Source of the DNA: a virus
DNA: 33,977 bases
Virus record (IMG/VR): IMGVR_UViG_3300045988_145460
Strand: one strand, 5' to 3'
Shown here: piece after piece, positions 120 through 18,552 of the stretch
How the letters are laid out: the number at the start of each line of letters is the position of its first letter
Numbering within the stretch: position 1 is the first letter of the stretch
Position numbers and translations under genes: made by a program
Notes under the pieces: model-generated
Seen by the model: the letters and a program-made list of their open reading frames with translations, nothing else
What the model was told of the DNA's origin: nothing
Database searches by the model: none

Positions 120-1223
120 CTAAAAACCAATGTAGGAAGCAAATTTGTCAGCAACTTCATTTTTTGCTTTTTGGGTGACGTGAGCATATATGTCCATCGT
201 AGTTTGTATATTTTCATGCCCTAGTCGTTCCTGGACCTCTTTGATCGTTGCTCCAGCCTCAAACAGTAGGGAGCAATGTGTATGTCTGAATCCGTGAGGA
301 GTGATACGCTTGAAATCAGGGTACCTTCTCCAAACTCGATTCAGCAAATTATTGACATGCACAATACTTTTAGGGCTACCTGATTCATTTTTAAATAATA
401 AGCCTTTTGTACTGTATTTGTGCCAATCTTTCAAAATTTCAATAGTTTTTGGATCCAGCGATATTGTTCGCTGGCTTTTTTTCGTTTTTGGAGTCTGAAA
501 TATGATTTTATTGTTTTCTCCCTTGGCTAGTGTTTGATTAACTTTAAGTTGTCCGCTCTCTAAATCAATATCAGTCCATCTTAATGCGCCTACTTCGTTC
601 TTCCTCATTCCTGTGAAAGCCAATAAACGGAAGAAAGTGAGCATTTCTATATCATCAAGTTCTTGGACCATTTCAAAAAAAGTTTTCAGTTCTTCTTTAT
701 TATAGAATTGTTCAAGCTCTTCCTTATCTTTCTTTTTTCTTTTTGGTTTTAGAGTTTTTCTCATTGGATTGCTATCAATCAATTCCATAGATATTGCATA
801 ATCAAATATCTGATTAGCAATGCTGATGATCCCAAAAAATCTCTTATAGTCTTCAGCCCATTTATTGACCTGAGATTGGCACATTGATAGAGTAATTTTA
901 TTTATGAGTTTATCTCCAAAATGAGGGATAATAAGTCTATCTGCTTTGTCAATTTGACTAACATAGGTTGATTCTTTAACTGTATTTCTATAATGCTCTT
1001 TCCAAGTTTCATATACCTGTTTGAAAGTAGTAGTTGTATTTCTGGTTCTAAAGGTTTTCTTCTCATAATCAGCTAAACACTTAGCTTCAGCAAGTCTAGC
1101 TTCACGTTCGGTTTTAAAACCACGCCTAAGAGTTACAATTTTCTTTCCCGTTAAAGGATCAATTCCATGATAGGCTTTAAAATAGTAGGCAAAACCATCA
1201 CCTTTTTTATATTTTTTGATCAT
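120..1223 (-). CDS. int: Tyrosine-type site-specific integrase
   Basis: 367-aa ORF with catalytic motifs TGMRKNE (Arg), HGFRHTH (His-x-x-Arg) and GHENIQTTMDIYAHV (His...Tyr). GAGGT RBS. Adjacent to attL. Confidence 0.95.
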   Translation of the reverse strand: MIKKYKKGDGFAYYFKAYHGIDPLTGKKIVTLRRGFKTEREARLAEAKCLADYEKKTFRTRNTTTTFKQVYETWKEHYRNTVKESTYVSQIDKADRLIIPHFGDKLINKITLSMCQSQVNKWAEDYKRFFGIISIANQIFDYAISMELIDSNPMRKTLKPKRKKKDKEELEQFYNKEELKTFFEMVQELDDIEMLTFFRLLAFTGMRKNEVGALRWTDIDLESGQLKVNQTLAKGENNKIIFQTPKTKKSQRTISLDPKTIEILKDWHKYSTKGLLFKNESGSPKSIVHVNNLLNRVWRRYPDFKRITPHGFRHTHCSLLFEAGATIKEVQERLGHENIQTTMDIYAHVTQKAKNEVADKFASYIGF

Positions 1224-1299
1224 TGATTTTTACCTCATTTCTTGTTAAAATGGGTATAGTAAAGAGGGCTTTTTAACGCCTATTTTTACTATACAGTAT

Positions 1300-1341
1300 A
1301 TCCTCACAATTTGCTTTGGTCGGCGGTGTGAGGATTTTTTA
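1300..1341. terminator. Hairpin abutting the abi stop codon, with its T-tract on the plus strand
   Basis: 9-bp stem ATCCTCACA / TGTGAGGAT (1300-1308 / 1327-1335) with an 18-nt loop, then TTTTT on the plus strand. No U-tract in the minus-strand sense. Confidence 0.45.
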
Positions 1342-2397
1342 TAAAAATTTTATTTTGTAAATTTCAGCTATCCTGTTTAAAAAGTCTTCTGGTATATTTA
1401 GCGTTGCATATATATCTCCTCTTGGAGAATAGTTGATTTTAGGATTGAATTCATCATTTGTAAATAAAGCACCAAAATCATATAAATACTGCCTGAATAC
1501 AATAGGGTCATTAATTAACACGGCAATAGAAATCATTACAGCAAACAAATCTTTTTTCCCGATTCCACTAAGATATTCTTCTTCAGTTAGAATTTCTTTT
1601 GAAAGTGCCGAAAGAAGAAGGACTTTGGTTAATTCATTTGTCACATTCGATAAAAAAGTTCTATTACCGTGTGCTATATTATTTCTATATTCTTGTAATA
1701 AAGATAACATAGAGAGAAGTAGCTCCTTTGCGTTTTCTCCATCTAATTCGGAATATTCGAAGAATTGGTTTGCTATATCAATTTTTATATCTTCTCTACA
1801 AATTTTGTACCAATTAATTGTGGTTCCAAAATAAATACCACCAGTTGCTACCCATGGAGGAATATCGCCATGCTTTATCCTGTAATGCTGAATCGAAGCA
1901 CTGTTCTTATTATTATCAATTTGATTTTTTATATTACTAATTTCTGATTTTCGATCAAGCTCGCCATTGGATTTATACTTTTCAAAATCTAAATATTCCA
2001 ACATAGAAACTCCAATTTTTTGAGCAATTTTGTAGGATAGTTTAGTTTTTAAGGATTTTTCAATATATATTATATATTTGAACAATAAATTGTTTAGCGC
2101 TTGATCTATCAGAAAAATTCGATGCAATGAAGCAAATGAAACGGGCTCATTAAATTGTTCGATGTTTAATTCATCATTAAAAAAAGTCCCGAATATATCT
2201 TTATAGCCATTCACAATTCCATAATAAGAAATACTTTGAAGAACTTCTTTTGTGAAAATCTCATTTTCAATAACGATTCCCTTATTTCTCATTAATGCAA
2301 TTTGTTGATTGTATGTTAGAAAAGGTTTATTAGTAGACAAAAAAGAAAACCTCCTATCTGGAAGATAGAAGGTATTCCTAGCCACATCCGTAGCCAT
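1339..2397 (-). CDS. Abi_2 (AbiD/AbiF-like) abortive-infection family protein
   Basis: 352-aa ORF. The N-terminal KPFLTYNQQIALMRNKGIVIE...ISYYGIVNGY and the central YRNNIAHGNR motif resemble the Abi_2 family. Sits in the lysogeny-module cargo position. Confidence 0.75.
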   Translation of the reverse strand: MATDVARNTFYLPDRRFSFLSTNKPFLTYNQQIALMRNKGIVIENEIFTKEVLQSISYYGIVNGYKDIFGTFFNDELNIEQFNEPVSFASLHRIFLIDQALNNLLFKYIIYIEKSLKTKLSYKIAQKIGVSMLEYLDFEKYKSNGELDRKSEISNIKNQIDNNKNSASIQHYRIKHGDIPPWVATGGIYFGTTINWYKICREDIKIDIANQFFEYSELDGENAKELLLSMLSLLQEYRNNIAHGNRTFLSNVTNELTKVLLLSALSKEILTEEEYLSGIGKKDLFAVMISIAVLINDPIVFRQYLYDFGALFTNDEFNPKINYSPRGDIYATLNIPEDFLNRIAEIYKIKFL

Positions 2398-2443
2398 TTA
2401 ATTCTCTTCTATCTTATCACTATTTTATGATCGCGTCAAGTCA

Positions 2444-2818
2444 TTATAATTTCAATTTAACTAAATCTCCAACTTGAATCTTAGGATTTTTTGCTTTTAG
2501 TGGATTAATGTCTTTTTCATTCACATCAAGAGCACTCTTTACCGTCTGTTTCCCACCATTCAAAAAACTGGATACAGAGAACGTAGTATCCTCCTTTATG
2601 CTTTGAGCAATTGAAAATTTAGGATAGACTTCAGTGATAATTAATTCCCCTTTTAAAAAATCATATCTACCAAGAGAATTACCGTCTATATCTGTAATCT
2701 CAGGTCCGGGTTCATAAATGCTTATTTTTGTATCCACATGAATTGATTTAGATTCATATCCTTTATCTATCATAATTGTATATTGATCTAAAATACGGAT
2801 AACTTTTGCAATAGCCAT
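2444..2818 (-). CDS. Hypothetical protein (124 aa), upstream partner of the abi gene
   Basis: Strong RBS AAGGAGAAAAATA-ATG. Only 46 nt separate it from abi, with no hairpin, so co-transcription is likely. No family recognised by eye. Confidence 0.7.
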   Translation of the reverse strand: MAIAKVIRILDQYTIMIDKGYESKSIHVDTKISIYEPGPEITDIDGNSLGRYDFLKGELIITEVYPKFSIAQSIKEDTTFSVSSFLNGGKQTVKSALDVNEKDINPLKAKNPKIQVGDLVKLKL

Positions 2819-2837
2819 TATTTTTCTCCTTTTTTAT

Positions 2838-2888
2838 AACTAGTGAATCAAACTCGTCTTTGACCATTGTTTCATTAGCGATAGTTAG
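2838..2888 (-). pseudogene. Relic of the 3' end of a second ImmA-like gene
   Basis: The minus strand reads LTIANETMVKDEFDSLV, against KTIANETMVIDEYRSLI at the C-terminus of the intact ImmA (3260-3640). About 22/29 nt are identical in the core. A stop lies just upstream and no start is present. Confidence 0.7.
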
Positions 2889-2973
2889 TCCTTTTATTTA
2901 AGTAACTTTATAAAATTATTTCTTTCATATTTTCTCCAATATCTTTTGTGAAGGTGATAGTAAAAAAATCTAA

Positions 2974-3243
2974 CTAAATAATTTTCTCAAACACCATTGT
3001 AGCCTGGATGCGATCTCCTCCACCTAGGCCCTTGCTGCCACCGTTAGCTGTGCTAATAGTATGAAGTCTGTATCCTTTGGCAGCTTGTTTGTTAATCACA
3101 TCTTCAAGTTCAGTGAGGTTTCCAGATCCAGTACCAAATAACTTTTCTTTCAGTGTTACTTGAAGCACAACATAGTTCAATCCAGTTACTCCTGAAGCTC
3201 CAGAAAAAGAACTTTCTTGTTTAACATTATCAAAAAATCCCAT
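2974..3243 (-). CDS. Small cytoplasmic protein (89 aa), DUF4177-like guess
   Basis: The start is set at the internal ATG (MGFFDN...), which has a perfect AAGGAG RBS. The pattern YVVLQV...LEDVINKQAAKGYRLHTIS resembles DUF4177. It is the last gene of the repressor operon. Confidence 0.6.
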   Translation of the reverse strand: MGFFDNVKQESSFSGASGVTGLNYVVLQVTLKEKLFGTGSGNLTELEDVINKQAAKGYRLHTISTANGGSKGLGGGDRIQATMVFEKII

Positions 3244-3259
3244 AATAATTTCTCCTTTT

Positions 3260-3640
3260 TTAATCAATTAAAGATCTATATTCATCAATCACCATCGTTT
3301 CGTTAGCGATGGTTTTTAAATTATACCGTTCCATAAAATGGATATAATTAAATTCTGACACATCATCCATAGTTTTTAATTCTTCTTCTAATAGATGATG
3401 AATCATGCTACGATCAGCTTGAAGTTCACACAACTCCCTATTAATCTCATACTGGACTGGAGTATGTTCTTTATGGCCCAATTCATGTAGGGCAACTTGC
3501 TTTTGATCTTGCTCTGATAGATTAATATCAATTGCAAGAACATTCAATGCTGGATTAAAGAAGCCTGGACTATGCCATTCGCTCCCATCAAAGTAGCATA
3601 AGCTTACACCCTCAAGGGCACAAAGCTCTTTTACAGTCAT
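3260..3640 (-). CDS. ImmA/IrrE-family zinc metallopeptidase (anti-repressor protease)
   Basis: HELGH zinc motif, size 126 aa, and position immediately downstream of the XRE-type repressor. Confidence 0.85.
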   Translation of the reverse strand: MTVKELCALEGVSLCYFDGSEWHSPGFFNPALNVLAIDINLSEQDQKQVALHELGHKEHTPVQYEINRELCELQADRSMIHHLLEEELKTMDDVSEFNYIHFMERYNLKTIANETMVIDEYRSLID

Positions 3641-3652
3641 ATAAATGCACCT

Positions 3653-4000
3653 CTATTTATTTTTTAAGTGTGCCTCCAAGACTGCTGTAATAAAATCAAT
3701 ATCTTCTTCAGTAAGTGGTTTACCATCGAACAACATAGATTGCGCAGCAATGTCTCGAAGGTCAAGCGGTGCAGAAGCATCACCGTCTGTTGCAATTTTT
3801 GGATTATCAGTGCGTCCTAATAAGTAGTCGATAGACACATTAAAATAATCAGCAATTTTTTGGAGATTATCAGCTTTCGGATTTCCCTTTTTCATACTAT
3901 AAAGATAATTTGTACTAAAATTTAGTTTTTCTTCTAATTGGTTAAGCGAAATTCCTTGCTTTTGGCAAAGTTCTTTAATTTTATCGAACGTCGAAAACAT
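3653..4000 (-). CDS. CI-like XRE-family HTH repressor
   Basis: HTH segment QGISLNQLEEKLNFSTNYLYSMKKG. The start is set at the internal ATG 4000 (MFSTFDK...), preceded by AAAGG. The ORF-track N-terminal extension would run into the operator/promoter region. Confidence 0.85.
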   Translation of the reverse strand: MFSTFDKIKELCQKQGISLNQLEEKLNFSTNYLYSMKKGNPKADNLQKIADYFNVSIDYLLGRTDNPKIATDGDASAPLDLRDIAAQSMLFDGKPLTEEDIDFITAVLEAHLKNK

Positions 4001-4036
4001 TGATATATCAACCTTTCTAAGATACGACAAAAAATA

Positions 4037-4055
4037 TTTAAAATTAATTCTAAAA
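4037..4055. promoter_or_regulatory. Operator copy O1 (TTTAAAATTAATTCTAAAA)
   Basis: Exact reverse complement of 4213-4231. Lies between the repressor start and the early promoter. Confidence 0.65.
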
Positions 4056-4059
4056 ACTA

Positions 4060-4088
4060 TTGACAAAAATTAGAATTAGTTTTAAAAT
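4060..4088 (+). promoter_or_regulatory. Early (lytic-direction) sigma-A type promoter
   Basis: TTGACA (4060-4065), a 17-nt spacer, then TAAAAT (4083-4088). Operator copy O2 occupies the spacer. Confidence 0.7.
4070..4086. promoter_or_regulatory. Operator copy O2
   Basis: TTAGAATTAGTTTTAAA matches 4215-4231 at 16/17 positions in the same orientation. It overlaps the promoter spacer and the -10 element. Confidence 0.6.
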
Positions 4089-5238: not shown

Positions 5239-5404
5239 AATTATTATTGGTGTATTGGTAATTGTTGTGTTGTTTGAGGCTATCATGGTAAGTGCAATTA
5301 GCCAACGCTGTAAAGAGTCAAAACGGGAATTAAAAAAGTTGATCATGGAAAAACAAAAAATCGAAGAAGCTCGACAAGCTATGCGCTTTGGATATCGTAG
5401 ATAA
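5228..5404 (+). CDS. Small single-pass membrane protein (58 aa)
   Basis: GGAG RBS before ATG 5228. Hydrophobic helix IIIGVLVIVVLFEAIMVSAI followed by a charged tail. Confidence 0.5.
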   Translation: MLNEIIIGVLVIVVLFEAIMVSAISQRCKESKRELKKLIMEKQKIEEARQAMRFGYRR

Positions 5405-5415
5405 GGAGCGATAAA

Positions 5416-12814: not shown

Positions 12815-13381
12815 ATGCGTAAAGTAGAACCGATTCGGGATACAGATGATATTGAACGCATGAAGGATTACTTAAAGAGTAAGAATGAACGAGACTATGT
12901 AATGATGGTTACAGGGCTGTATTCAGGAATGCGAGTTAGTGATATCCTGCCCTTGAAAGTAAGAAGTGTTAAAGGAACTCACATTGAAGTGACGGAACGA
13001 AAGACTGGTAAAACAAAGAGATTCGCTATTAACCCAGCTCTAAGAAAAGCCCTGGATCATTATATAAAAGAAAATGAATTAAAGGATTATGATTACTTGT
13101 TCCCTTCGAGAAAGAAGGTTAACAATGAAGGACTTAGAATAACACATATTGGTAGAGTGGCAGCATATCAGATCTTGAGGGATGCAGGAGAGCATATTGG
13201 TTTAACAAATATCGGAACACACTCTATGAGGAAAACGTTTGGATACCATCACTACAGAAAGAATCAAAATGTTGGAATATTGATGGAGTTATTTAATCAT
13301 TCTTCACCAGATATCACACTGGGTTATATAGGGTTTAAGCAGGATGAGCTAGATAATAGCATGCTGAATTTTGCTTATTAA
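12815..13381 (+). CDS. Catalytic-core-only tyrosine recombinase (188 aa), a second recombinase in the element
   Basis: Intact catalytic set: SGMRVSD (Arg), KTGKTKRF (Lys), HSMRKTF (His-x-x-Arg), NHSSPDITLGYIG (His...Tyr). No N-terminal arm-binding or core-binding domain. AAGGAG RBS. Confidence 0.8.
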   Translation: MRKVEPIRDTDDIERMKDYLKSKNERDYVMMVTGLYSGMRVSDILPLKVRSVKGTHIEVTERKTGKTKRFAINPALRKALDHYIKENELKDYDYLFPSRKKVNNEGLRITHIGRVAAYQILRDAGEHIGLTNIGTHSMRKTFGYHHYRKNQNVGILMELFNHSSPDITLGYIGFKQDELDNSMLNFAY

Positions 13382-13670: not shown

Positions 13671-14051
13671 GTGCAGGATGATATAAAACAGAGAAGACAA
13701 TCGAGGTATACAATGAAAGAACTACGGGCAGACCGTAATGGACCACATCGAGTAGCATTTGAAAAGAATAAGAAGATACTACTCAAGACTCAGAATACCT
13801 GTGGGATCTGTGGTCAACCTGTAGATAAATCACTCAGGTATCCCCACCCACTATCCCCAGTGATAGACCACATCATTCCAGTGAATAGGAATGGACATCC
13901 ATCAGACATCAAGAACTTACAGCTTGCGCATTGGCAATGCAATAGACAAAAGTCTGATAAGTTATATGCTGAACAAAATTTTGAAAAAAATGCAATTGTT
14001 GGAAATCGCAATTTGCCACAATCAACCAATTGGCTGAAATACCACAGTTGA
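13671..14051 (+). CDS. HNH endonuclease
   Basis: CGICGQ...DHIIPVNRNGHPSDIKNLQLAHWQCNRQKSDK (HNH/His-Me finger with Cys pairs). GTG start with GAGGG 6 nt upstream. Confidence 0.85.
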   Translation: MQDDIKQRRQSRYTMKELRADRNGPHRVAFEKNKKILLKTQNTCGICGQPVDKSLRYPHPLSPVIDHIIPVNRNGHPSDIKNLQLAHWQCNRQKSDKLYAEQNFEKNAIVGNRNLPQSTNWLKYHS

Positions 14052-14099: not shown

Positions 14100-14152
14100 C
14101 TTCACGCCGTCACTGTACATATTTTCTCACGCCAAAACGAAAGGATAAGAAA

Positions 14153-15421
14153 TTGGAACTAAGAGGAATTGAATATCTCAGAAGAAAATTAGACTCTTGC
14201 AGGCCTAGGGTTAATTTGCGGTACAAGCACTATGCTATGCAAAATAATGACACTCCTATAGGAATCACTATCCCTCCAAACGTCCGTGCTCAATACAAAT
14301 CAACGTTGGGGTGGACTGCTAAGGGGGTTGATAGCCTTGCAGATCGTCTAGTATTTAGGAAGTTCGAAAATGATGATTTTGAAGTTACTGAGATTTTTGA
14401 ACAAAATAACCCGGATATCTTTTTTGATAGTGCAATCTTATCCGCTTTGATTGGATCGTGTAGTTTTATCTACCTTTCGAAAGGGGATAATGAAGAAGTG
14501 CGATTGCAGGTGATTGAATCAAGCAATGCAACAGGAGTTATTGATCCGATCACTGGACTGTTAAATGAAGGGTATGCAGTATTAGCTCGTGATGATTACG
14601 GTCGACCAACTTTGGAAGCATATTTTGAGTCGAATGCCACTCACTTCATTCCAAAAGGTGAAGAGCCTTATTCAGTCAAGAATCCTGCTAATATTCCTTT
14701 ATTGGTCCCTGTTATTCACAGACCAGATGCGGTTCGTCCTTTTGGTCGTTCACGGATTACTAGGGCAGGGATGTATTATCAAAAATACGCTAAACGGACT
14801 CTAGAACGTGCTGATATTACTGCTGAATTTTACTCATGGCCACAAAAATATATCATTGGTTTAGATCCCGATGCAGAACCTTTGGAAAAATGGAAAGCAA
14901 CAGTTTCTAGTCTACTAACTATTTCAGCAAGTGATACTGGAGAAAAGCCTAGCATCGGACAGTTTACAACTGCCAGTATGGCACCATTTACTGAGCAATT
15001 GAGGACAGCAGCAGCTGGATTTGCTGGAGAAATGGGCTTGACCTTGGATGATTTGGGATTCGTTTCAGATAACCCATCATCTGTAGAAGCGATTAAAGCT
15101 AGTCACGAGAACTTGCGCTTAGCAGGGCGAAAGGCCCAAAGGTCATTAGGTGCTGGTTTCCTAAATGTGGCTTATGTAGCTGCTTGTTTGCGTGATGAAT
15201 TTCATTACGCAAGAAGCCAATTCGTGAAAACAACTGTGAAATGGGAACCGTTATTTGAAGCAGATGCTAATATGATGACTATGATCGGTGATGGCGCTCT
15301 TAAATTGAATCAGGCCTTGCCTGGCTATATCAATGCTGAAACAGTTCGAGATCTTACAGGTATTGCTGGTGATATGTCTGCTGTTCCTGTGACAAATGAA
15401 GGAGAACCAGATGGAACATGA
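14153..15421 (+). CDS. Portal protein (SPP1 Gp6-like)
   Basis: 422 aa. TTG start with AGGA 7 nt upstream. Its size, the immediately following MuF gene, and an acidic C-terminus all fit. Family call is by eye. Confidence 0.7.
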   Translation: MELRGIEYLRRKLDSCRPRVNLRYKHYAMQNNDTPIGITIPPNVRAQYKSTLGWTAKGVDSLADRLVFRKFENDDFEVTEIFEQNNPDIFFDSAILSALIGSCSFIYLSKGDNEEVRLQVIESSNATGVIDPITGLLNEGYAVLARDDYGRPTLEAYFESNATHFIPKGEEPYSVKNPANIPLLVPVIHRPDAVRPFGRSRITRAGMYYQKYAKRTLERADITAEFYSWPQKYIIGLDPDAEPLEKWKATVSSLLTISASDTGEKPSIGQFTTASMAPFTEQLRTAAAGFAGEMGLTLDDLGFVSDNPSSVEAIKASHENLRLAGRKAQRSLGAGFLNVAYVAACLRDEFHYARSQFVKTTVKWEPLFEADANMMTMIGDGALKLNQALPGYINAETVRDLTGIAGDMSAVPVTNEGEPDGT

Positions 15422-16802
15422 TGTATTGCCTGGTCTTCTAAAAGAAGTACAGAGTCGTTTTGAAAGCGAATATGGGAAGAGCGAGGTTGTCAGTCGAGCT
15501 TTTGCAGAACTACAGGCCAAAAAAGCAACTTACAAGACAGCAAATGAGTTTGCTATCGAAGTTGGAGAAATTCTCTCTAAGGCTCTGGAAGCTTCTCTAA
15601 GCGCTGATAAATTACCAGATGGTAAAATGTATTACAATATTGCTCAACGTTTGTTATCGGACGTACTGGGACGTAATTATGAGATAATAAGTGGTTATAC
15701 TAGAGATGTTCAGAAAAAACTAAATGCAGATGCAAAAATCAGTTTGAAAGTACAAGTTCCTGAATTGAATCAGGATAGAGTTGCTGGAATAGTCAATCGA
15801 TTGGCATCTGAGGAAAATTTTGAAGATGTTAGTTGGTTATTTGGTGAGCCAATCGTTAATTTTTCTCAGTCTATCATAGATGATAGTATTCAAAAAAATG
15901 CTGAGTTTCATCATAAATCTGGATTACAACCCGAAATTATTAGAAAATCTTATCTCCATTGCTGTGATTGGTGTCAAGAGGTTCAAGGTAGCTATAAATA
16001 TCCAAAAGTTCCAAAGAATGTTTATAGAAGACATCAACATTGTCGTTGTACTGTTGACTATGATCCAAAAAGCGGGAAAGTTAAAGACATTTGGAGTAAA
16101 ATTTGGAGAAAAACAGATGAAAGTGATAAGATAGAAGCAAGGAAAGATATCAATGGGAAATCTCAAATGAGCGAAGTGAGAAAACTTGCGCTTCAAGAAG
16201 GAATTACCTCGAATCCTATCAAAAAAAGTCCTAAAAAACTAACTGAGAAGCAAATCATTGATGCCGTTGGCGGTGGAGATAAAACAAAAGGATCATGTTC
16301 ATCCGCAGCTTTTGCTTACATAGGTAATAAAGGTGGTTATACCGTTTTAGATTTTCGAGGAGGGGAAAGCTGTGACTTTTTTGCTAGAAACAGTAGAATC
16401 CAAATGATAGGAAATCTTCCTGGTGTTAAAATGCATGTTGTTAAACATACAAATGACTTTACTGCTGTCAGAGAATTGTTGGAAAAGGTAGAATCTGGGA
16501 ATGAATATTATTTAGCGGCAGGTAGACATGCGGCTATCATAAGAAAAAATGAAGGCCGTTTCGAATATTTGGAATTACAATCCAGAATATCAAACGGGTT
16601 TAAACCATTAGATAACATTGTTTTGAAAGAAAGATTCAAGTGTAAAAAAACGCATAGTACCAGACACGGCAAATATGAGGTGGAAAGTTGTATTATTGAT
16701 TCGGATTCATTGAAAGATAATCCTGAGTTCCATAATATATTGAGTTTCATTAACACAGCAGGTTCTAAACAAATGAAAGGAATTGAAGGCCATGAAAGAT
16801 GA
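15411..16802 (+). CDS. MuF / SPP1 gp7-family minor head protein with a roughly 220-aa C-terminal extension
   Basis: MuF hallmark CCDWCQEVQG...RRHQHCRCTV at ORF-track residues 189-220. Extra domain at residues 250-468, containing GSCSSAAFAYIG and AAGRHAAII. The start is set at ATG 15411, with GAAGGAG 6 nt upstream. Confidence 0.8.
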   Translation: MEHDVLPGLLKEVQSRFESEYGKSEVVSRAFAELQAKKATYKTANEFAIEVGEILSKALEASLSADKLPDGKMYYNIAQRLLSDVLGRNYEIISGYTRDVQKKLNADAKISLKVQVPELNQDRVAGIVNRLASEENFEDVSWLFGEPIVNFSQSIIDDSIQKNAEFHHKSGLQPEIIRKSYLHCCDWCQEVQGSYKYPKVPKNVYRRHQHCRCTVDYDPKSGKVKDIWSKIWRKTDESDKIEARKDINGKSQMSEVRKLALQEGITSNPIKKSPKKLTEKQIIDAVGGGDKTKGSCSSAAFAYIGNKGGYTVLDFRGGESCDFFARNSRIQMIGNLPGVKMHVVKHTNDFTAVRELLEKVESGNEYYLAAGRHAAIIRKNEGRFEYLELQSRISNGFKPLDNIVLKERFKCKKTHSTRHGKYEVESCIIDSDSLKDNPEFHNILSFINTAGSKQMKGIEGHER

Positions 16803-17019
16803 TCATGAAGAAATAAACTGGTCTGAATATTGCTATAAAGAAAATCATGATGACAAAATTTGGTGGGTTGATACGTCATTGTTTGCTAGAGGGTTGATGT
16901 TATTTACGTTTGATAAGGAAAAGTTCTATAACCTTTTTGAAGATTACCCTCAAAACATGACTTCAGAAGAGGTTGAAATCTTTGATAAAGAAAATCCATA
17001 TTGGGCTGAATTTTTTTAG
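16792..17019 (+). CDS. Small acidic protein (75 aa), candidate immunity/partner of the MuF extension
   Basis: Overlaps the MuF stop by 11 nt. Rich in D/E and W/F/Y. A terminator follows directly. Confidence 0.55.
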   Translation: MKDDHEEINWSEYCYKENHDDKIWWVDTSLFARGLMLFTFDKEKFYNLFEDYPQNMTSEEVEIFDKENPYWAEFF

Positions 17020-17039
17020 ACCGAAAATAAGAATACTGA

Positions 17040-17060
17040 AGCACTCGAAAGGGTGCTTTT
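17040..17060 (+). terminator. Intrinsic terminator inside the morphogenesis gene block
   Basis: Stem AGCACTC / GGGTGCT with a GAAA tetraloop, followed by TTTTATT. Confidence 0.7.
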
Positions 17061-17087: not shown

Positions 17088-17139
17088 GATATCTCCCAGC
17101 GATAGGGTTATCATGCGATTACGATTGAAAGGTTATAGT

Positions 17140-18552
17140 ATGGCTAGGAAGAAACTTGGCAATCAGAATCCTACTCAATCGGTGATTTTAAAATACGTCA
17201 AGAAAAATTCATTAGCAAATGAAGCGATTGATCTTTACGAAAAAACTGGTCTTTCTTGCTATTCTTGGCAAAAAAACCTTCTACTACCTATGATGGCTGT
17301 TGATAAAAATGGCTTATGGGTGCATCAGAAATTTGGATACTCTATTCCTCGACGAAACGGGAAGTCAGAGCTTCTTTACATTTTGGAGATTTGGGGGCTG
17401 CATAAAGGACTAAACATCCTTCACACAGCTCATCGTATTTCCACTTCCCATGCCTCATTTGAAAAGGTTAAACGTTACCTGGAGAAAATGGGATATGTGG
17501 ATGGTGAAGATTTCAACTCTATCCGTGCCAAAGGACAGGAACGGATAGAATTGTATAAAACTGGTGGTGTGGTCCAATTCCGTACCAGGACATCAAATGG
17601 GGGTCTTGGTGAAGGATTCGATATGCTTATCATTGATGAGGCACAGGAATACACAACAGAGCAGGAATCTGCTTTGAAATACACTGTAACCGATAGTGCT
17701 AATCCAATGACTGTCATGTGTGGGACTCCTCCTACTCCAGTTTCCAGTGGTACAGTCTTTACTAAGTATCGAGAAACGTGCTTATTCGGTAAAGGGAAAT
17801 ACTCTGGTTGGGCTGAATGGTCTGTGTCTGAAGAAAAAGAGATTGACGATGTGGATGCCTGGTATCATTCAAATCCTTCAATGGGTTATCACTTGAATGA
17901 ACGAAAAGTAGAAGCTGAGCTAGGTGAAGATAAACTAGATCATAATGTTCAACGTCTAGGTTTCTGGCCTACTTACAATCAGAAGTCTGCTATATCTGAA
18001 ACAGAATGGAACGAATTAAAAGTATCTGATATTCCTGAGCTTGTCGGACAATTATTTGTTGGGATTAAGTATGGACAAGATGGTACAAACGTTGCCATGA
18101 GCGTAGCAGTGCGGACGAAAGATGGACGTTTTTTTGTCGAAGTTATAGATTGTCAATCAGTGCGCAATGGGAATGACTGGCTAGTGGCTTTTCTGCGTAG
18201 TGCAGATGTGGCGCAAATCGTTATTGACGGTGCAAGTGGTCAAAAGATTCTAGATGAAGAATTGAAGGACTACAAAATTAAGAATGTCATCTTACCAACC
18301 GTTAAAGAGATCATAGTGGCAAATGCTCTTTGGGAGCAAGGTATTTATCAAAAAAATATCTGCCATGCTGGACAACCATCTCTATCAAAAGTGGCTACTA
18401 ACTGCGATAAGCGCAATATTGGTTCAAATGGTGGTTTTGGTTATCGCTCTCATTTTGACGATATGGATATTTCTTTGATGGACAGCGCTTTGCTTGCGCA
18501 TTGGGCTTGTGTAACCACTAAGCCTAAGAAAAAGCAAAAAATCAGTTATTAA
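17140..18552 (+). CDS. terL: Terminase large subunit
   Basis: Walker A PRRNGKSE and Walker B MLIIDEAQE, with a C-terminal nuclease-type region. Start at ATG 17140 (GAAAGG RBS), with ATG 17113 as an alternative. Confidence 0.85.
   Translation: MARKKLGNQNPTQSVILKYVKKNSLANEAIDLYEKTGLSCYSWQKNLLLPMMAVDKNGLWVHQKFGYSIPRRNGKSELLYILEIWGLHKGLNILHTAHRISTSHASFEKVKRYLEKMGYVDGEDFNSIRAKGQERIELYKTGGVVQFRTRTSNGGLGEGFDMLIIDEAQEYTTEQESALKYTVTDSANPMTVMCGTPPTPVSSGTVFTKYRETCLFGKGKYSGWAEWSVSEEKEIDDVDAWYHSNPSMGYHLNERKVEAELGEDKLDHNVQRLGFWPTYNQKSAISETEWNELKVSDIPELVGQLFVGIKYGQDGTNVAMSVAVRTKDGRFFVEVIDCQSVRNGNDWLVAFLRSADVAQIVIDGASGQKILDEELKDYKIKNVILPTVKEIIVANALWEQGIYQKNICHAGQPSLSKVATNCDKRNIGSNGGFGYRSHFDDMDISLMDSALLAHWACVTTKPKKKQKISY

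What the first reader, a model, noticed from the sequence alone, without database searches (positions are those of the whole stretch)
16143..17019. MuF protein with an unassigned Cys/His C-terminal domain plus an overlapping small acidic ORF: candidate MuF polymorphic toxin/immunity pair
The MuF/SPP1-gp7 core ends near ORF-track residue 240 (the HCRCTV motif). A further roughly 220 residues follow, with a helix-N-terminal Cys (GSCSSAAFAYIG, codon 16296-16298) and a downstream His (AAGRHAAII, codon 16527-16529). That spacing is reminiscent of papain-like or transglutaminase-like catalytic dyads. The next gene overlaps by 11 nt, encodes a 75-aa acidic, aromatic-rich protein, and is immediately followed by a terminator. 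Temperate Firmicutes phages are known to carry MuF-fused toxin domains followed by cognate immunity genes, described as MuF polymorphic toxins. I cannot match this particular C-terminal domain or its partner to a named toxin or immunity family.
Basis: partly seen in the sequence, partly recalled or inferred. Interest (0 to 1): 0.7.

Follow-up and report, generated by a model that had tools for sequence, protein, structure and literature searches.

The report
Phage head-protein toxin with its antidote
A Streptococcus prophage head protein carries a previously unnamed cysteine-enzyme toxin module at its tail end, always encoded next to one small acidic protein (DUF7675) that is very probably its antidote; this is a new family within an already known class of phage-borne swappable toxins.

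Summary
Gene 15396-16802 encodes a 468-aa minor head protein. Residues 1-245 are about 70% identical to SM1 gp35, the seed of the published "MuF3" family. Residues ~270-468 form a separate domain with no Pfam, NCBIfam or PDB sequence match.

That domain is a large family: 1,051 cluster representatives, always at the extreme C-terminus, with invariant Cys301, His378, Glu393 and Gln395. AlphaFold models it at pLDDT 96. Foldseek returns only weak hits, nearly all papain-fold cysteine enzymes.

- **Polymorphism:** 81 sibling MuF3 loci carry six unrelated C-termini (one is Ntox50). Each pairs 1:1 with its own small downstream ORF, while portal and terminase stay 85-92% identical.
- **Linkage:** DUF7675 is adjacent to the domain in 79 of 79 evaluable species genomes, 61 co-directional and 18 convergent.

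The same domain plus DUF7675 also follows MuF1, MuF2 and unrelated non-phage N-termini. One of these sits beside an FtsK/SpoIIIE ATPase and a nuclease toxin that shares its N-terminus.

Verdict: a new toxin/immunity family within the known MuF polymorphic-toxin class. Toxicity, neutralisation, chemistry and target are untested.

The parts
15396..16802 (+). Gene for the MuF3-family minor head protein with a C-terminal toxin-like domain (468 aa; alternative start at 15411 gives 463 aa)
   Evidence: ORF. Full-length match to phrog_7104. More than 2,500 homologues. Lies directly after the portal gene 14153-15421.
15396..16130 (+). N-terminal MuF3 domain (residues 1-245), including the CCDWC...RRHQHCRC motif at residues 189-220. 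Presumed capsid/portal-targeting module.
   Evidence: 70-71% identical to SM1 gp35 and OlisA2_0027 over 245 aa. SM1 gp35 N-terminus is the MuF3 seed (PMC5576092). phrog_2494 'minor head protein'. hhalign to a MuF1 alignment is weak: Prob 41%, E=2.8e-4, over the C..C..NCRC motif.
16203..16802 (+). C-terminal papain-fold-like Cys-His-Glu domain (residues ~270-468), the candidate toxin/effector
   Evidence: No Pfam, NCBIfam or PDB sequence hit. 1,051 cluster representatives, always C-terminal. AlphaFold pLDDT 96.1. Foldseek neighbours are clan-CA cysteine enzymes and a phage 'Papain fold toxin 1' model.
16296..16298 (+). Codon of Cys301, the predicted catalytic nucleophile (GSCSS)
   Evidence: Invariant in 80 and 85 aligned homologues. 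First residue of helix 52-63 of the model.
16527..16529 (+). Codon of His378, the predicted general base
   Evidence: Invariant. First residue of strand 129-136 of the model.
16572..16580 (+). Codons of Glu393-Leu394-Gln395 (YLELQ), the predicted third triad residue and a neighbouring polar residue
   Evidence: E and Q are invariant. They lie at the end of the strand that follows the His strand. The pattern parallels the NC-H-DxQ signature of Tox-PL1 (PMC3482391).
16749..16799 (+). Conserved C-terminal tail INTxxxxQxKGxxGxx[K/R]-COOH
   Evidence: 115 of 120 and 129 of 130 homologues end in K or R. The tail is kept where the partner gene is convergent and does not overlap, so it is a protein-level constraint. 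pLDDT about 95.
16792..17019 (+). DUF7675 gene (75 aa, pI 4.25), the candidate immunity protein. It overlaps the toxin gene by 11 nt.
   Evidence: PF24723 E=1e-30. phrog_6473. Adjacent to the toxin domain in 79 of 79 genomes and in non-phage loci. AlphaFold pLDDT 89, no PDB neighbour.
17038..17059 (+). Terminator-like hairpin after the cassette
   Evidence: Conserved in IMG/VR relative L019 and in Javan240. Function not tested.

Best explanation
The locus is a polymorphic toxin/immunity cassette grafted onto a phage minor head protein.

**Proposed mechanism**
- The N-terminal MuF3 domain is the carrier. It is inferred to load the protein into the capsid at the portal, as known for SPP1 gp7 and proposed for MuF toxins.
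- Residues ~270-468 are the payload: a compact, basic (pI 9.3) papain-fold-like enzyme. Its predicted catalytic residues are Cys301, His378 and Glu393, with Gln395 nearby. It also has a conserved C-terminal tail ending in Lys or Arg.
- It most likely modifies or cleaves a cytoplasmic protein by thiol chemistry. Peptidase, glutamine deamidase and transglutaminase activities are all possible, and the target is unknown.
- The overlapping 75-aa acidic DUF7675 protein is its cognate inhibitor. It is probably translated together with the toxin and probably binds it 1:1. This would keep it inactive in the producing cell.
- The toxin would then be packaged and delivered with the DNA. In non-phage relatives it would be exported through FtsK/SpoIIIE-associated loci.

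**Shown here**
- Domain boundaries, conservation and a high-confidence fold model.
- Cassette swapping among sibling phages.
- Sharing of the domain between MuF1, MuF2, MuF3 and non-phage carriers.
- Near-absolute adjacency to DUF7675.

**Inferred, not shown**
- Catalysis, toxicity and inhibition by DUF7675.
- Packaging into the virion and delivery.
For: 1. **Cassette swap.** In 81 complete MuF3 loci there are six unrelated C-terminal clusters. Each pairs exclusively with its own downstream small-ORF cluster; this domain pairs with DUF7675 in 48 loci. One alternative C-terminus is the known toxin Ntox50. SM1 gp35 is the published MuF3 toxin (PMC5576092). OlisA2 and SM1 share 85% portal identity and 92% terminase identity with the window. 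Their C-termini and small ORFs show no similarity to the window's.
2. **Shared between trafficking systems.** The domain follows Phage_Mu_F (36 of 85 representatives), Phage_min_cap2 (10 of 85) and VG15 (5 of 85). It also follows unrelated helical N-termini in loci without phage genes. In L014 the neighbouring gene shares the N-terminal 93 aa (32% identity, E=2e-10) but ends in a Colicin-DNase/WHH nuclease. Both genes follow an FtsK_SpoIIIE ATPase.
3. **Position.** The domain is at the extreme C-terminus in all 150 top representatives.
4. **Partner linkage.** DUF7675 is adjacent in 79 of 79 evaluable species genomes across Bacillota, Bacteroidota, Spirochaetia, Fibrobacter and one alphaproteobacterial MAG. 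It is co-directional in 61 and convergent, tail to tail, in 18. An 11-nt overlap recurs in phage and non-phage loci. An orphan DUF7675 in a Bacteroidota genome sits beside a decayed remnant of the toxin domain.
5. **Enzyme-like features.** C, H, E and Q are invariant, along with D295, T297, D319 and R321. The model has pLDDT 96.1, with Cys at a helix N-terminus, His at a strand start and Glu on the next strand. Foldseek neighbours are almost all papain-fold cysteine enzymes. The best named viral neighbour is 'Papain fold toxin 1, glutamine deamidase' (E=1.6e-4, TMq 0.48).
6. **Charge complementarity.** The toxin domain has pI 9.3 and the partner pI 4.25.
7. **Temperate phage.** The window carries an integrase and a repressor module, as expected for MuF toxins (PMC5576092).
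Against: - No experiment exists. Toxicity, catalysis, binding and packaging are all inferred.
- Structural similarity to any solved papain-fold enzyme is weak: best PDB E=1.2e-3 and TM no higher than 0.36. There is no sequence-profile link to Tox-PL1 or any Pfam family.
- I could not inspect model coordinates, so the spatial proximity of Cys, His and Glu is not verified.
- DUF7675 has no structural relative. Its inhibitor role rests on gene linkage alone.
- The genes lie in a late structural operon, so immunity may not be expressed in lysogens. That fits an injected effector as well as a competition toxin.
- The non-phage N-terminal domains have no significant family match. Calling those loci type VII-like is therefore an inference.
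Confidence: 0.75

Rival explanations
1. The domain is a virion assembly, maturation or releasing protease. It would cleave head proteins, or free itself or other cargo, as Zhang et al. 2012 suggested for some MuF-Tox-PL1 fusions. DUF7675 would act as a trans-acting pro-peptide or chaperone.
For: - The domain is mostly found on minor head proteins: 51 of 85 long representatives carry a MuF-type N-terminus.
- BFVD neighbour number 3 is annotated 'capsid maturation protease'.
- The window has no separate prohead protease between portal and capsid genes.
- PMC3482391 raises this possibility.
Against: - Sibling phages with 85-92% identical portal and terminase lack the domain. They carry Ntox50 or other unrelated C-termini instead. 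It therefore cannot be essential for assembly of this head type.
- The domain also occurs in loci with no phage genes, beside nuclease toxins that share its N-terminus.
- It is always the last domain, which is the payload position, not upstream of a cargo.
Confidence: 0.08
2. The domain is a capsid-delivered host-takeover or anti-defence effector rather than a growth-inhibiting toxin. It would mildly modify one host protein on entry to favour infection or the lysis-lysogeny decision. DUF7675 would only silence it during assembly.
For: - It is encoded in the late packaging operon right after the cos site and portal gene, so immunity is not obviously expressed in lysogens.
- Jamet et al. discuss this option for peptidase-type MuF toxins (PMC5576092).
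- Bxa, a characterised MuF toxin, also has a host-colonisation role (PMC11699363).
Against: - The same domain plus DUF7675 sits in non-phage loci next to bona fide nuclease toxins. That is hard to explain for a phage-infection helper.
- Orphan DUF7675 genes are kept next to decayed toxin remnants. Partner genes are convergent in 18 genomes. Both fit a protective immunity gene that is selected independently.
- A strict 1:1 inhibitor is typical of harmful enzymes.
Confidence: 0.15
3. The two ORFs are an ordinary structural extension and an unrelated small phage gene. The Cys/His spacing is coincidental.
For: No database family names the domain. Small ORFs are common after head genes.
Against: - Cys, His, Glu and Gln are invariant across 80 and 85 diverse homologues.
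- Adjacency to DUF7675 holds in 79 of 79 genomes.
- Toxin and partner clusters co-vary 1:1.
- The domain recurs on unrelated carriers.
Confidence: 0.02

Closest known systems
MuF polymorphic toxins, MuF3 family (prototype: Streptococcus mitis phage SM1 gp35/gp36; Jamet et al. 2017, PMC5576092)
   Same: - Same N-terminal domain, about 70% identical over 245 aa.
- Same position after the portal gene in an SM1-like temperate Streptococcus siphophage.
- Same architecture: a variable C-terminus followed by a small overlapping ORF.
   Different: The C-terminal domain and the partner are unrelated to those of SM1. SM1 has a putative nuclease paired with a Cys_rich_CPCC protein. Here the pair is a papain-fold-like domain with no family name and DUF7675.
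Tox-PL1 / Pfam PF15644 Gln_amidase, including its MuF fusions (Zhang et al. 2012, PMC3482391); OspI is a solved member
   Same: - Papain-like fold toxin domain at the extreme C-terminus of polymorphic toxins.
- Found on MuF and on other carriers.
- Analogous signature: [N/S]C ... H ... [D/E]xQ.
- A phage Tox-PL1 model is the best named structural neighbour (E=1.6e-4, TMq 0.48).
   Different: - No PF15644 hit for the window domain or for any of 25 family members, even at E<=10.
- OspI is not among the top 50 PDB hits listed.
- The acid residue is Glu rather than Asp.
- The partner is DUF7675, not Imm35.
- The family has an extra conserved C-terminal tail ending in K/R.
Experimentally characterised MuF toxins: Apk2 (p)ppApp synthetases and Bxa ADP-ribosyltransferase (PMC12226406, PMC11699363)
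   Same: A MuF carrier, a C-terminal toxic enzyme, an adjacent small non-enzymatic immunity protein, and a prophage head-morphogenesis location.
   Different: The enzyme class is different, and this family has not been characterised experimentally. There is no enzymatic (hydrolase-type) second immunity gene here.
LXG/WXG-type polymorphic toxins exported by FtsK/SpoIIIE (EssC-like) ATPases
   Same: Non-phage relatives of the domain sit after helical N-terminal domains. They lie next to FtsK_SpoIIIE ATPases, small helical proteins and alternative nuclease toxins.
   Different: Those N-termini give no significant LXG or WXG100 match; the best is E about 0.03 on a neighbouring 87-aa protein. The window protein itself uses a phage carrier.

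Membership tests
MuF polymorphic toxin family (Jamet 2017) | N-terminal MuF-superfamily domain (MuF1-4) | tested here: met
   69.6% identity over 245 aa to SM1 gp35, whose first 250 aa seeded the MuF3 profile (PMC5576092). Pfam PF04233 and PF06152 do not hit. My own hhalign to a MuF1 alignment is only weak (Prob 41%, E=2.8e-4), though it covers the diagnostic C..C..NCRC motif.
MuF polymorphic toxin family (Jamet 2017) | Gene immediately downstream of the portal gene in the packaging module of a temperate tailed phage | tested here: met
   Portal 14153-15421, MuF 15396-16802, terminase 17113-18552, scaffold and capsid genes follow. Integrase, repressor and ImmA-like genes are at 120-4066. Close relatives are prophages in Streptococcus genomes.
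MuF polymorphic toxin family (Jamet 2017) | Variable C-terminal domains on a conserved N-terminus | tested here: met
   Six C-terminal clusters in 81 MuF3 loci, including Ntox50.
MuF polymorphic toxin family (Jamet 2017) | C-terminal domain shared with other polymorphic-toxin families | tested here: met
   The domain occurs on MuF1, MuF2, VG15 and non-phage N-termini next to FtsK_SpoIIIE or DUF87 ATPases. In one locus a nuclease toxin shares the same N-terminus.
MuF polymorphic toxin family (Jamet 2017) | Small (<150 aa) downstream ORF specific to the toxin type | tested here: met
   1:1 pairing of C-terminal clusters and downstream-ORF clusters. DUF7675 adjacent in 79 of 79 genomes.
MuF polymorphic toxin family (Jamet 2017) | Toxic activity neutralised by the partner protein | not testable with these tools
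   Needs expression assays with and without DUF7675.
Tox-PL1 / PF15644 Gln_amidase | Match to the family profile | tested here: not met
   No hit at E<=10 for the domain or for 25 family members.
Tox-PL1 / PF15644 Gln_amidase | NC-H-DxQ catalytic signature on a papain-like fold | tested here: inconclusive
   The family has SC-H-ExQ in the same order. A phage Tox-PL1 model is a structural neighbour at TMq 0.48. No profile-profile comparison with PF15644 was possible.
Tox-PL1 / PF15644 Gln_amidase | Association with Imm35 immunity proteins | tested here: not met
   The partner is DUF7675 in every locus examined.
Papain-like (clan CA) cysteine enzyme fold | Nucleophile Cys at the N-terminus of a helix, His at the start of a beta-strand, and an acidic or amide residue on the following strand | tested here: met
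   DSSP of the pLDDT-96 model places C52 at the start of helix 52-63, H129 at the start of strand 129-136 and E144 at the end of strand 139-144 (domain numbering). All three are invariant. The 3-D distances between them could not be checked.
Papain-like (clan CA) cysteine enzyme fold | Significant structural similarity to solved members | tested here: inconclusive
   Most of the top 30 PDB hits are papain-fold enzymes (UfSP, Josephin, staphopain, CtaG, M48 USP, MINDY, vasohibin). The scores are weak: E no better than 1.2e-3 and TM no higher than 0.36.
Pfam DUF7675 (PF24723) | Profile match above the gathering threshold | tested here: met
   105.8 bits against a cut-off of 27, E=1.1e-30.
Prohead/capsid maturation protease | Conserved and required in phages with the same head module | tested here: not met
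   SM1, OlisA2 and 31 IMG/VR siblings have the same module but lack the domain.

The most novel reading that the evidence does not exclude
The domain may be a new branch of papain-fold enzymes with an unusual built-in feature. Its invariant C-terminal tail (QxKGxxGxx[K/R]-COOH) might occupy its own substrate cleft, much as a ubiquitin-like tail does in the deubiquitinase-type enzymes that are its nearest structural neighbours. That would give a self-gated effector with a new protein-modifying activity. The same effector would be delivered by two unrelated routes, phage capsids and FtsK/SpoIIIE-type export. In this reading DUF7675 is a new inhibitor fold. Where it is encoded convergently or kept as an orphan, it would be expressed independently and protect lysogens and bystanders against incoming phage-borne toxin.
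Probability: 0.2. Interest if true: 0.7.

Novelty: new member of a known kind. Interest (0 to 1): 0.5.

Why it matters
- **Scale.** The domain is a large, unnamed enzyme family: at least 1,051 clusters at 50% identity. It is common in prophages of oral and gut Streptococcus, Clostridia, Bacteroidota and Spirochaetia.
- **A function for a DUF.** The work gives Pfam DUF7675 a concrete, testable role as the cognate immunity protein or inhibitor of this domain.
- **Gap in the MuF toxin field.** MuF toxins are abundant in the human microbiome, but only two enzyme types (Apk2 and Bxa) have been characterised. A cysteine-enzyme member with a clean two-gene cassette is an easy next experimental target.
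- **Mechanistic questions it could address.** Are such toxins packaged and injected with the phage DNA, and what bacterial protein do they hit?
- **Further leads.** The same survey exposes at least three more unnamed MuF3 toxin/partner pairs.

Tried and rejected
**Searches on the toxin domain that gave nothing**
- Pfam, NCBIfam and PADLOC scans of the full protein, both halves and 25 family members found nothing for the domain.
- phmmer and a profile search against PDB sequences returned only noise.
- Foldseek against PDB gave no strong neighbour, only a consistent weak papain-fold signal.

**Searches on the partner and the non-phage carriers that gave nothing**
- Foldseek of the DUF7675 model gave nothing (E>3).
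- The literature search for DUF7675 returned no papers.
- The non-phage N-terminal domains could not be assigned to LXG/WXG100; only sub-threshold hits appeared.

**Technical limits**
- My first regex-based survey of MuF3 loci missed 43 loci. I replaced it with a phmmer-based survey.

**Ideas considered and rejected**
- Tail conservation is only a by-product of the overlapping partner gene. Rejected, because the tail is equally conserved where the partner is convergent.
- The domain is a maturation protease. Rejected, because sibling phages replace it.
Full report
**1. What is in the window**

The window is a complete temperate Streptococcus siphophage.
- An integrase, an Abi_2 gene, an ImmA-like peptidase and an HTH repressor lie on the minus strand at 120-4066. 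A DnaB helicase and a CHAP-SH3 lysin are also present.
- The region of interest is about 89% identical in DNA to Streptococcus phage Javan240.
- The C-terminal domain is 97-98% identical to prophages of S. parasanguinis and Streptococcus sp. HMSC072G04.
- The local gene order is: short tyrosine recombinase (12815-13381), HNH (13671-14051), portal (14153-15421), the 468-aa protein (15396-16802), a 75-aa ORF (16792-17019), large terminase (17113-18552), scaffold and major capsid.
- SM1, OlisA2, Javan278 and Javan240 have the same order.

**2. Check of the observation**

- Cys301 is codon 16296-16298 and His378 is codon 16527-16529.
- The small ORF overlaps the stop codon of the long gene by 11 nt.
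- It encodes an acidic (pI 4.25), aromatic-rich protein with 17 aromatic residues out of 75.
- A terminator-like hairpin follows at 17038-17059.
- The only correction is that HCRCTV is at residues 215-220, not about 240. Conservation with sibling phages does end near residue 245.

**3. The N-terminal half**

Pfam does not recognise it: there is no hit at E<=10. PHROGs labels the best annotated match to its N-terminal region (phrog_2494) 'minor head protein'. It is 70-71% identical over 245 residues to SM1 gp35 and OlisA2_0027.

Jamet et al. 2017 built their MuF3 profile from the first 250 residues of SM1 gp35. They reported profile-profile homology to PF04233 and PF06152 (PMC5576092). My own hhalign against a MuF1 alignment is only weakly positive (Prob 41%, E=2.8e-4). 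It does align the diagnostic C..C..G..P..H.CRC motif. The protein is therefore a MuF3-family minor head protein.

**4. The C-terminal domain**

*No named relative.* Residues ~270-468 have no match in Pfam, NCBIfam, PADLOC or PDB sequences.

*A large family.*
- A profile of 25 domain-only sequences finds 1,051 cluster representatives at 50% identity, 806 of them below 1e-30.
- The domain ends at or within one residue of the C-terminus in nearly all of the 150 best hits.

*Strong conservation.*
- Invariant residues in 80 and 85 diverse sequences include GGDxTxGSC (Cys301), D319, R321, His378 and E393-x-Q395.
- The family has a conserved tail, INTxxxxQxKGxxGxx, that ends in Lys or Arg in 115 of 120 and 129 of 130 sequences.
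- The tail is equally conserved in 18 genomes where the partner gene is convergent and cannot constrain it. It is therefore a feature of the protein itself.

*Fold.*
- AlphaFold2 with this alignment gives pLDDT 96.1.
- Cys is the first residue of a helix, His the first residue of a strand, and Glu sits at the end of the next strand. That is the papain-fold layout.
- Foldseek against PDB gives only weak hits (best E=1.2e-3, TM no higher than 0.36). Nearly all are papain-fold cysteine enzymes: UfSP, Josephin, staphopain, CtaG, herpesvirus M48, MINDY and vasohibin.
- In BFVD, the first hit is a family member. The next is a phage 'Papain fold toxin 1, glutamine deamidase' model (E=1.6e-4, TMq 0.48).

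Zhang et al. 2012 described Tox-PL1 with an NC-H-DxQ signature and noted fusions to MuF (PMC3482391). This family has SC-H-ExQ but is not detected by PF15644. I read it as an unnamed papain-fold family, possibly a distant sister of Tox-PL1.

**5. Polymorphism test**

I fetched 80 IMG/VR loci through the N-terminal domain and added four GenBank phages. Of these, 81 were complete.
- Their C-termini fall into six unrelated clusters.
- Each cluster is followed by its own cluster of small ORFs, with no cross-pairing.
- This domain pairs with DUF7675 in 48 loci. Two further loci with this C-terminus had no small downstream ORF recovered by the script. The other clusters hold 11, 10, 5, 4 and 1 loci.
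- One alternative is the known toxin Ntox50 (OlisA2).
- Another is the SM1 type, paired with a Cys_rich_CPCC protein.
- OlisA2 and SM1 share 85% portal identity and 92% terminase identity with the window. Their C-termini and small ORFs give no alignment to the window's.

The cassette is therefore exchanged inside an otherwise conserved packaging module. This argues strongly against an essential assembly role.

**6. The domain on other carriers**

*Phage carriers.* Among 85 long representatives, 36 carry Phage_Mu_F, 10 Phage_min_cap2 and 5 VG15. One carries an additional ADP-ribosyltransferase domain.

*Non-phage carriers.* The domain also follows unrelated helical N-termini in loci without phage genes:
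- next to HSP70, GrpE, FtsK_SpoIIIE and DnaJ;
- next to FtsK_SpoIIIE;
- next to a DUF87 ATPase;
- next to LRR proteins.

In L014 the preceding gene shares the first 93 residues (32% identity, E=2e-10) but ends in a Colicin-DNase/WHH nuclease. One carrier with alternative toxic heads is the defining pattern of polymorphic toxins.

**7. Linkage to DUF7675**

- In each of those four non-phage contexts the next gene is a 64-67-aa DUF7675 that overlaps the stop codon by 11 nt.
- In 80 species-level genomes found through the domain, DUF7675 is adjacent in 79. The remaining locus ends at a contig edge.
- Of the 79, 61 are co-directional and 18 are convergent, tail to tail, within -11 to +42 nt. The convergent cases are mostly Bacteroidota.
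- An orphan DUF7675 in a Bacteroidota genome lies beside a decayed fragment of the toxin domain.
- DUF7675 is well conserved and models at pLDDT 89, but it has no structural neighbour.

**8. Interpretation**

The best-supported reading is a toxin/immunity cassette carried by a capsid-targeted protein. The MuF3 domain would load it into the head. The papain-fold-like domain would be a thiol enzyme acting on a cytoplasmic target. DUF7675 would be its specific inhibitor.

The chemistry (peptidase, deamidase or transglutaminase), the target, toxicity, binding and packaging are all inferred. The main rivals are a maturation or releasing protease and a non-toxic infection effector. The swap data and the non-phage contexts make both less likely, but experiments are needed to exclude them.

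**9. Novelty**

The class is known: MuF polymorphic toxins, including papain-fold versions (PMC3482391, PMC5576092). Two members, Apk2 and Bxa, have been characterised (PMC12226406, PMC11699363).

What appears new:
- the definition of this particular domain family;
- its signature and its C-terminal tail;
- its pairing with DUF7675, for which the paper search found no publication.

I therefore file it as a new member of a known kind, of moderate interest.

Noticed in passing
window 14101-14113: The sequence TTCACGCCGTCAC is identical to the annotated cos site of phage SM1, between the HNH and portal genes. The window is therefore not linearised at cos, and the MuF-toxin/DUF7675 pair are the second and third genes after cos.
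   Followed up: partly
window 17011-17019: The window's DUF7675 stops four residues early (75 aa against 79 aa; it lacks SDRK). The cause is a one-base difference in a T-run relative to L019 and Javan240. The missing residues lie outside the Pfam domain.
   Followed up: yes
window 1339-2397 (-): An Abi_2 (abortive-infection-like) gene (PF07751, E=4.5e-33) sits between the integrase and the repressor module. It is a likely lysogen-expressed defence cargo gene.
   Followed up: no
window 12815-13381 (+): A short (188-aa) tyrosine recombinase, a second one besides the integrase, sits just upstream of HNH/cos. It is conserved at the same place in SM1, OlisA2, Javan278 and Javan240. Its role is unknown.
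   Followed up: no
window 17113-17140: Terminase homologues align only from residue 10 of the ORF. The true start is therefore probably the ATG at 17140, not 17113.
   Followed up: partly
L122, L125, L127, L132, L133, L138, L143, L149, L150, L152, L155, L162, L164, L167, L169, L173, L174, L177: In 18 genomes, mostly Bacteroidota, DUF7675 is encoded convergently, tail to tail, with the toxin gene instead of overlapping it co-directionally. This implies independent transcription of the partner.
   Followed up: partly
L008-L013 (DUF7675 at 5001-5270 in L008; remnant at 5276-5410, minus strand): An orphan DUF7675 lies in a Bacteroidota chromosome, in a SusC/SusD neighbourhood, next to a decayed fragment of the toxin domain. 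It looks like a retained immunity gene after toxin loss.
   Followed up: partly
L014 2668-8186: A non-phage locus has an FtsK_SpoIIIE ATPase followed by two tandem toxins sharing an N-terminal 'MAKYAI...' domain. One ends in Colicin-DNase/WHH and the other in this domain plus DUF7675. TerD, TerY and ATP-grasp genes lie beside them. The N-terminal domain has no family name.
   Followed up: partly
L060 3486-4975; L059 1314-3207; L096 2158-3550: Three further MuF3 C-terminal types have no Pfam match; one contains an HENGH metallopeptidase-like motif. Each has its own private small downstream ORF, so these are further unnamed candidate toxin/immunity pairs.
   Followed up: partly
alignment A5 (representatives P0362-P0457): One representative combines an ADP-ribosyltransferase domain (PF03496) with this C-terminal domain. 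One carries a Peptidase_S78_2 domain. Two MuF proteins contain inteins.
   Followed up: no
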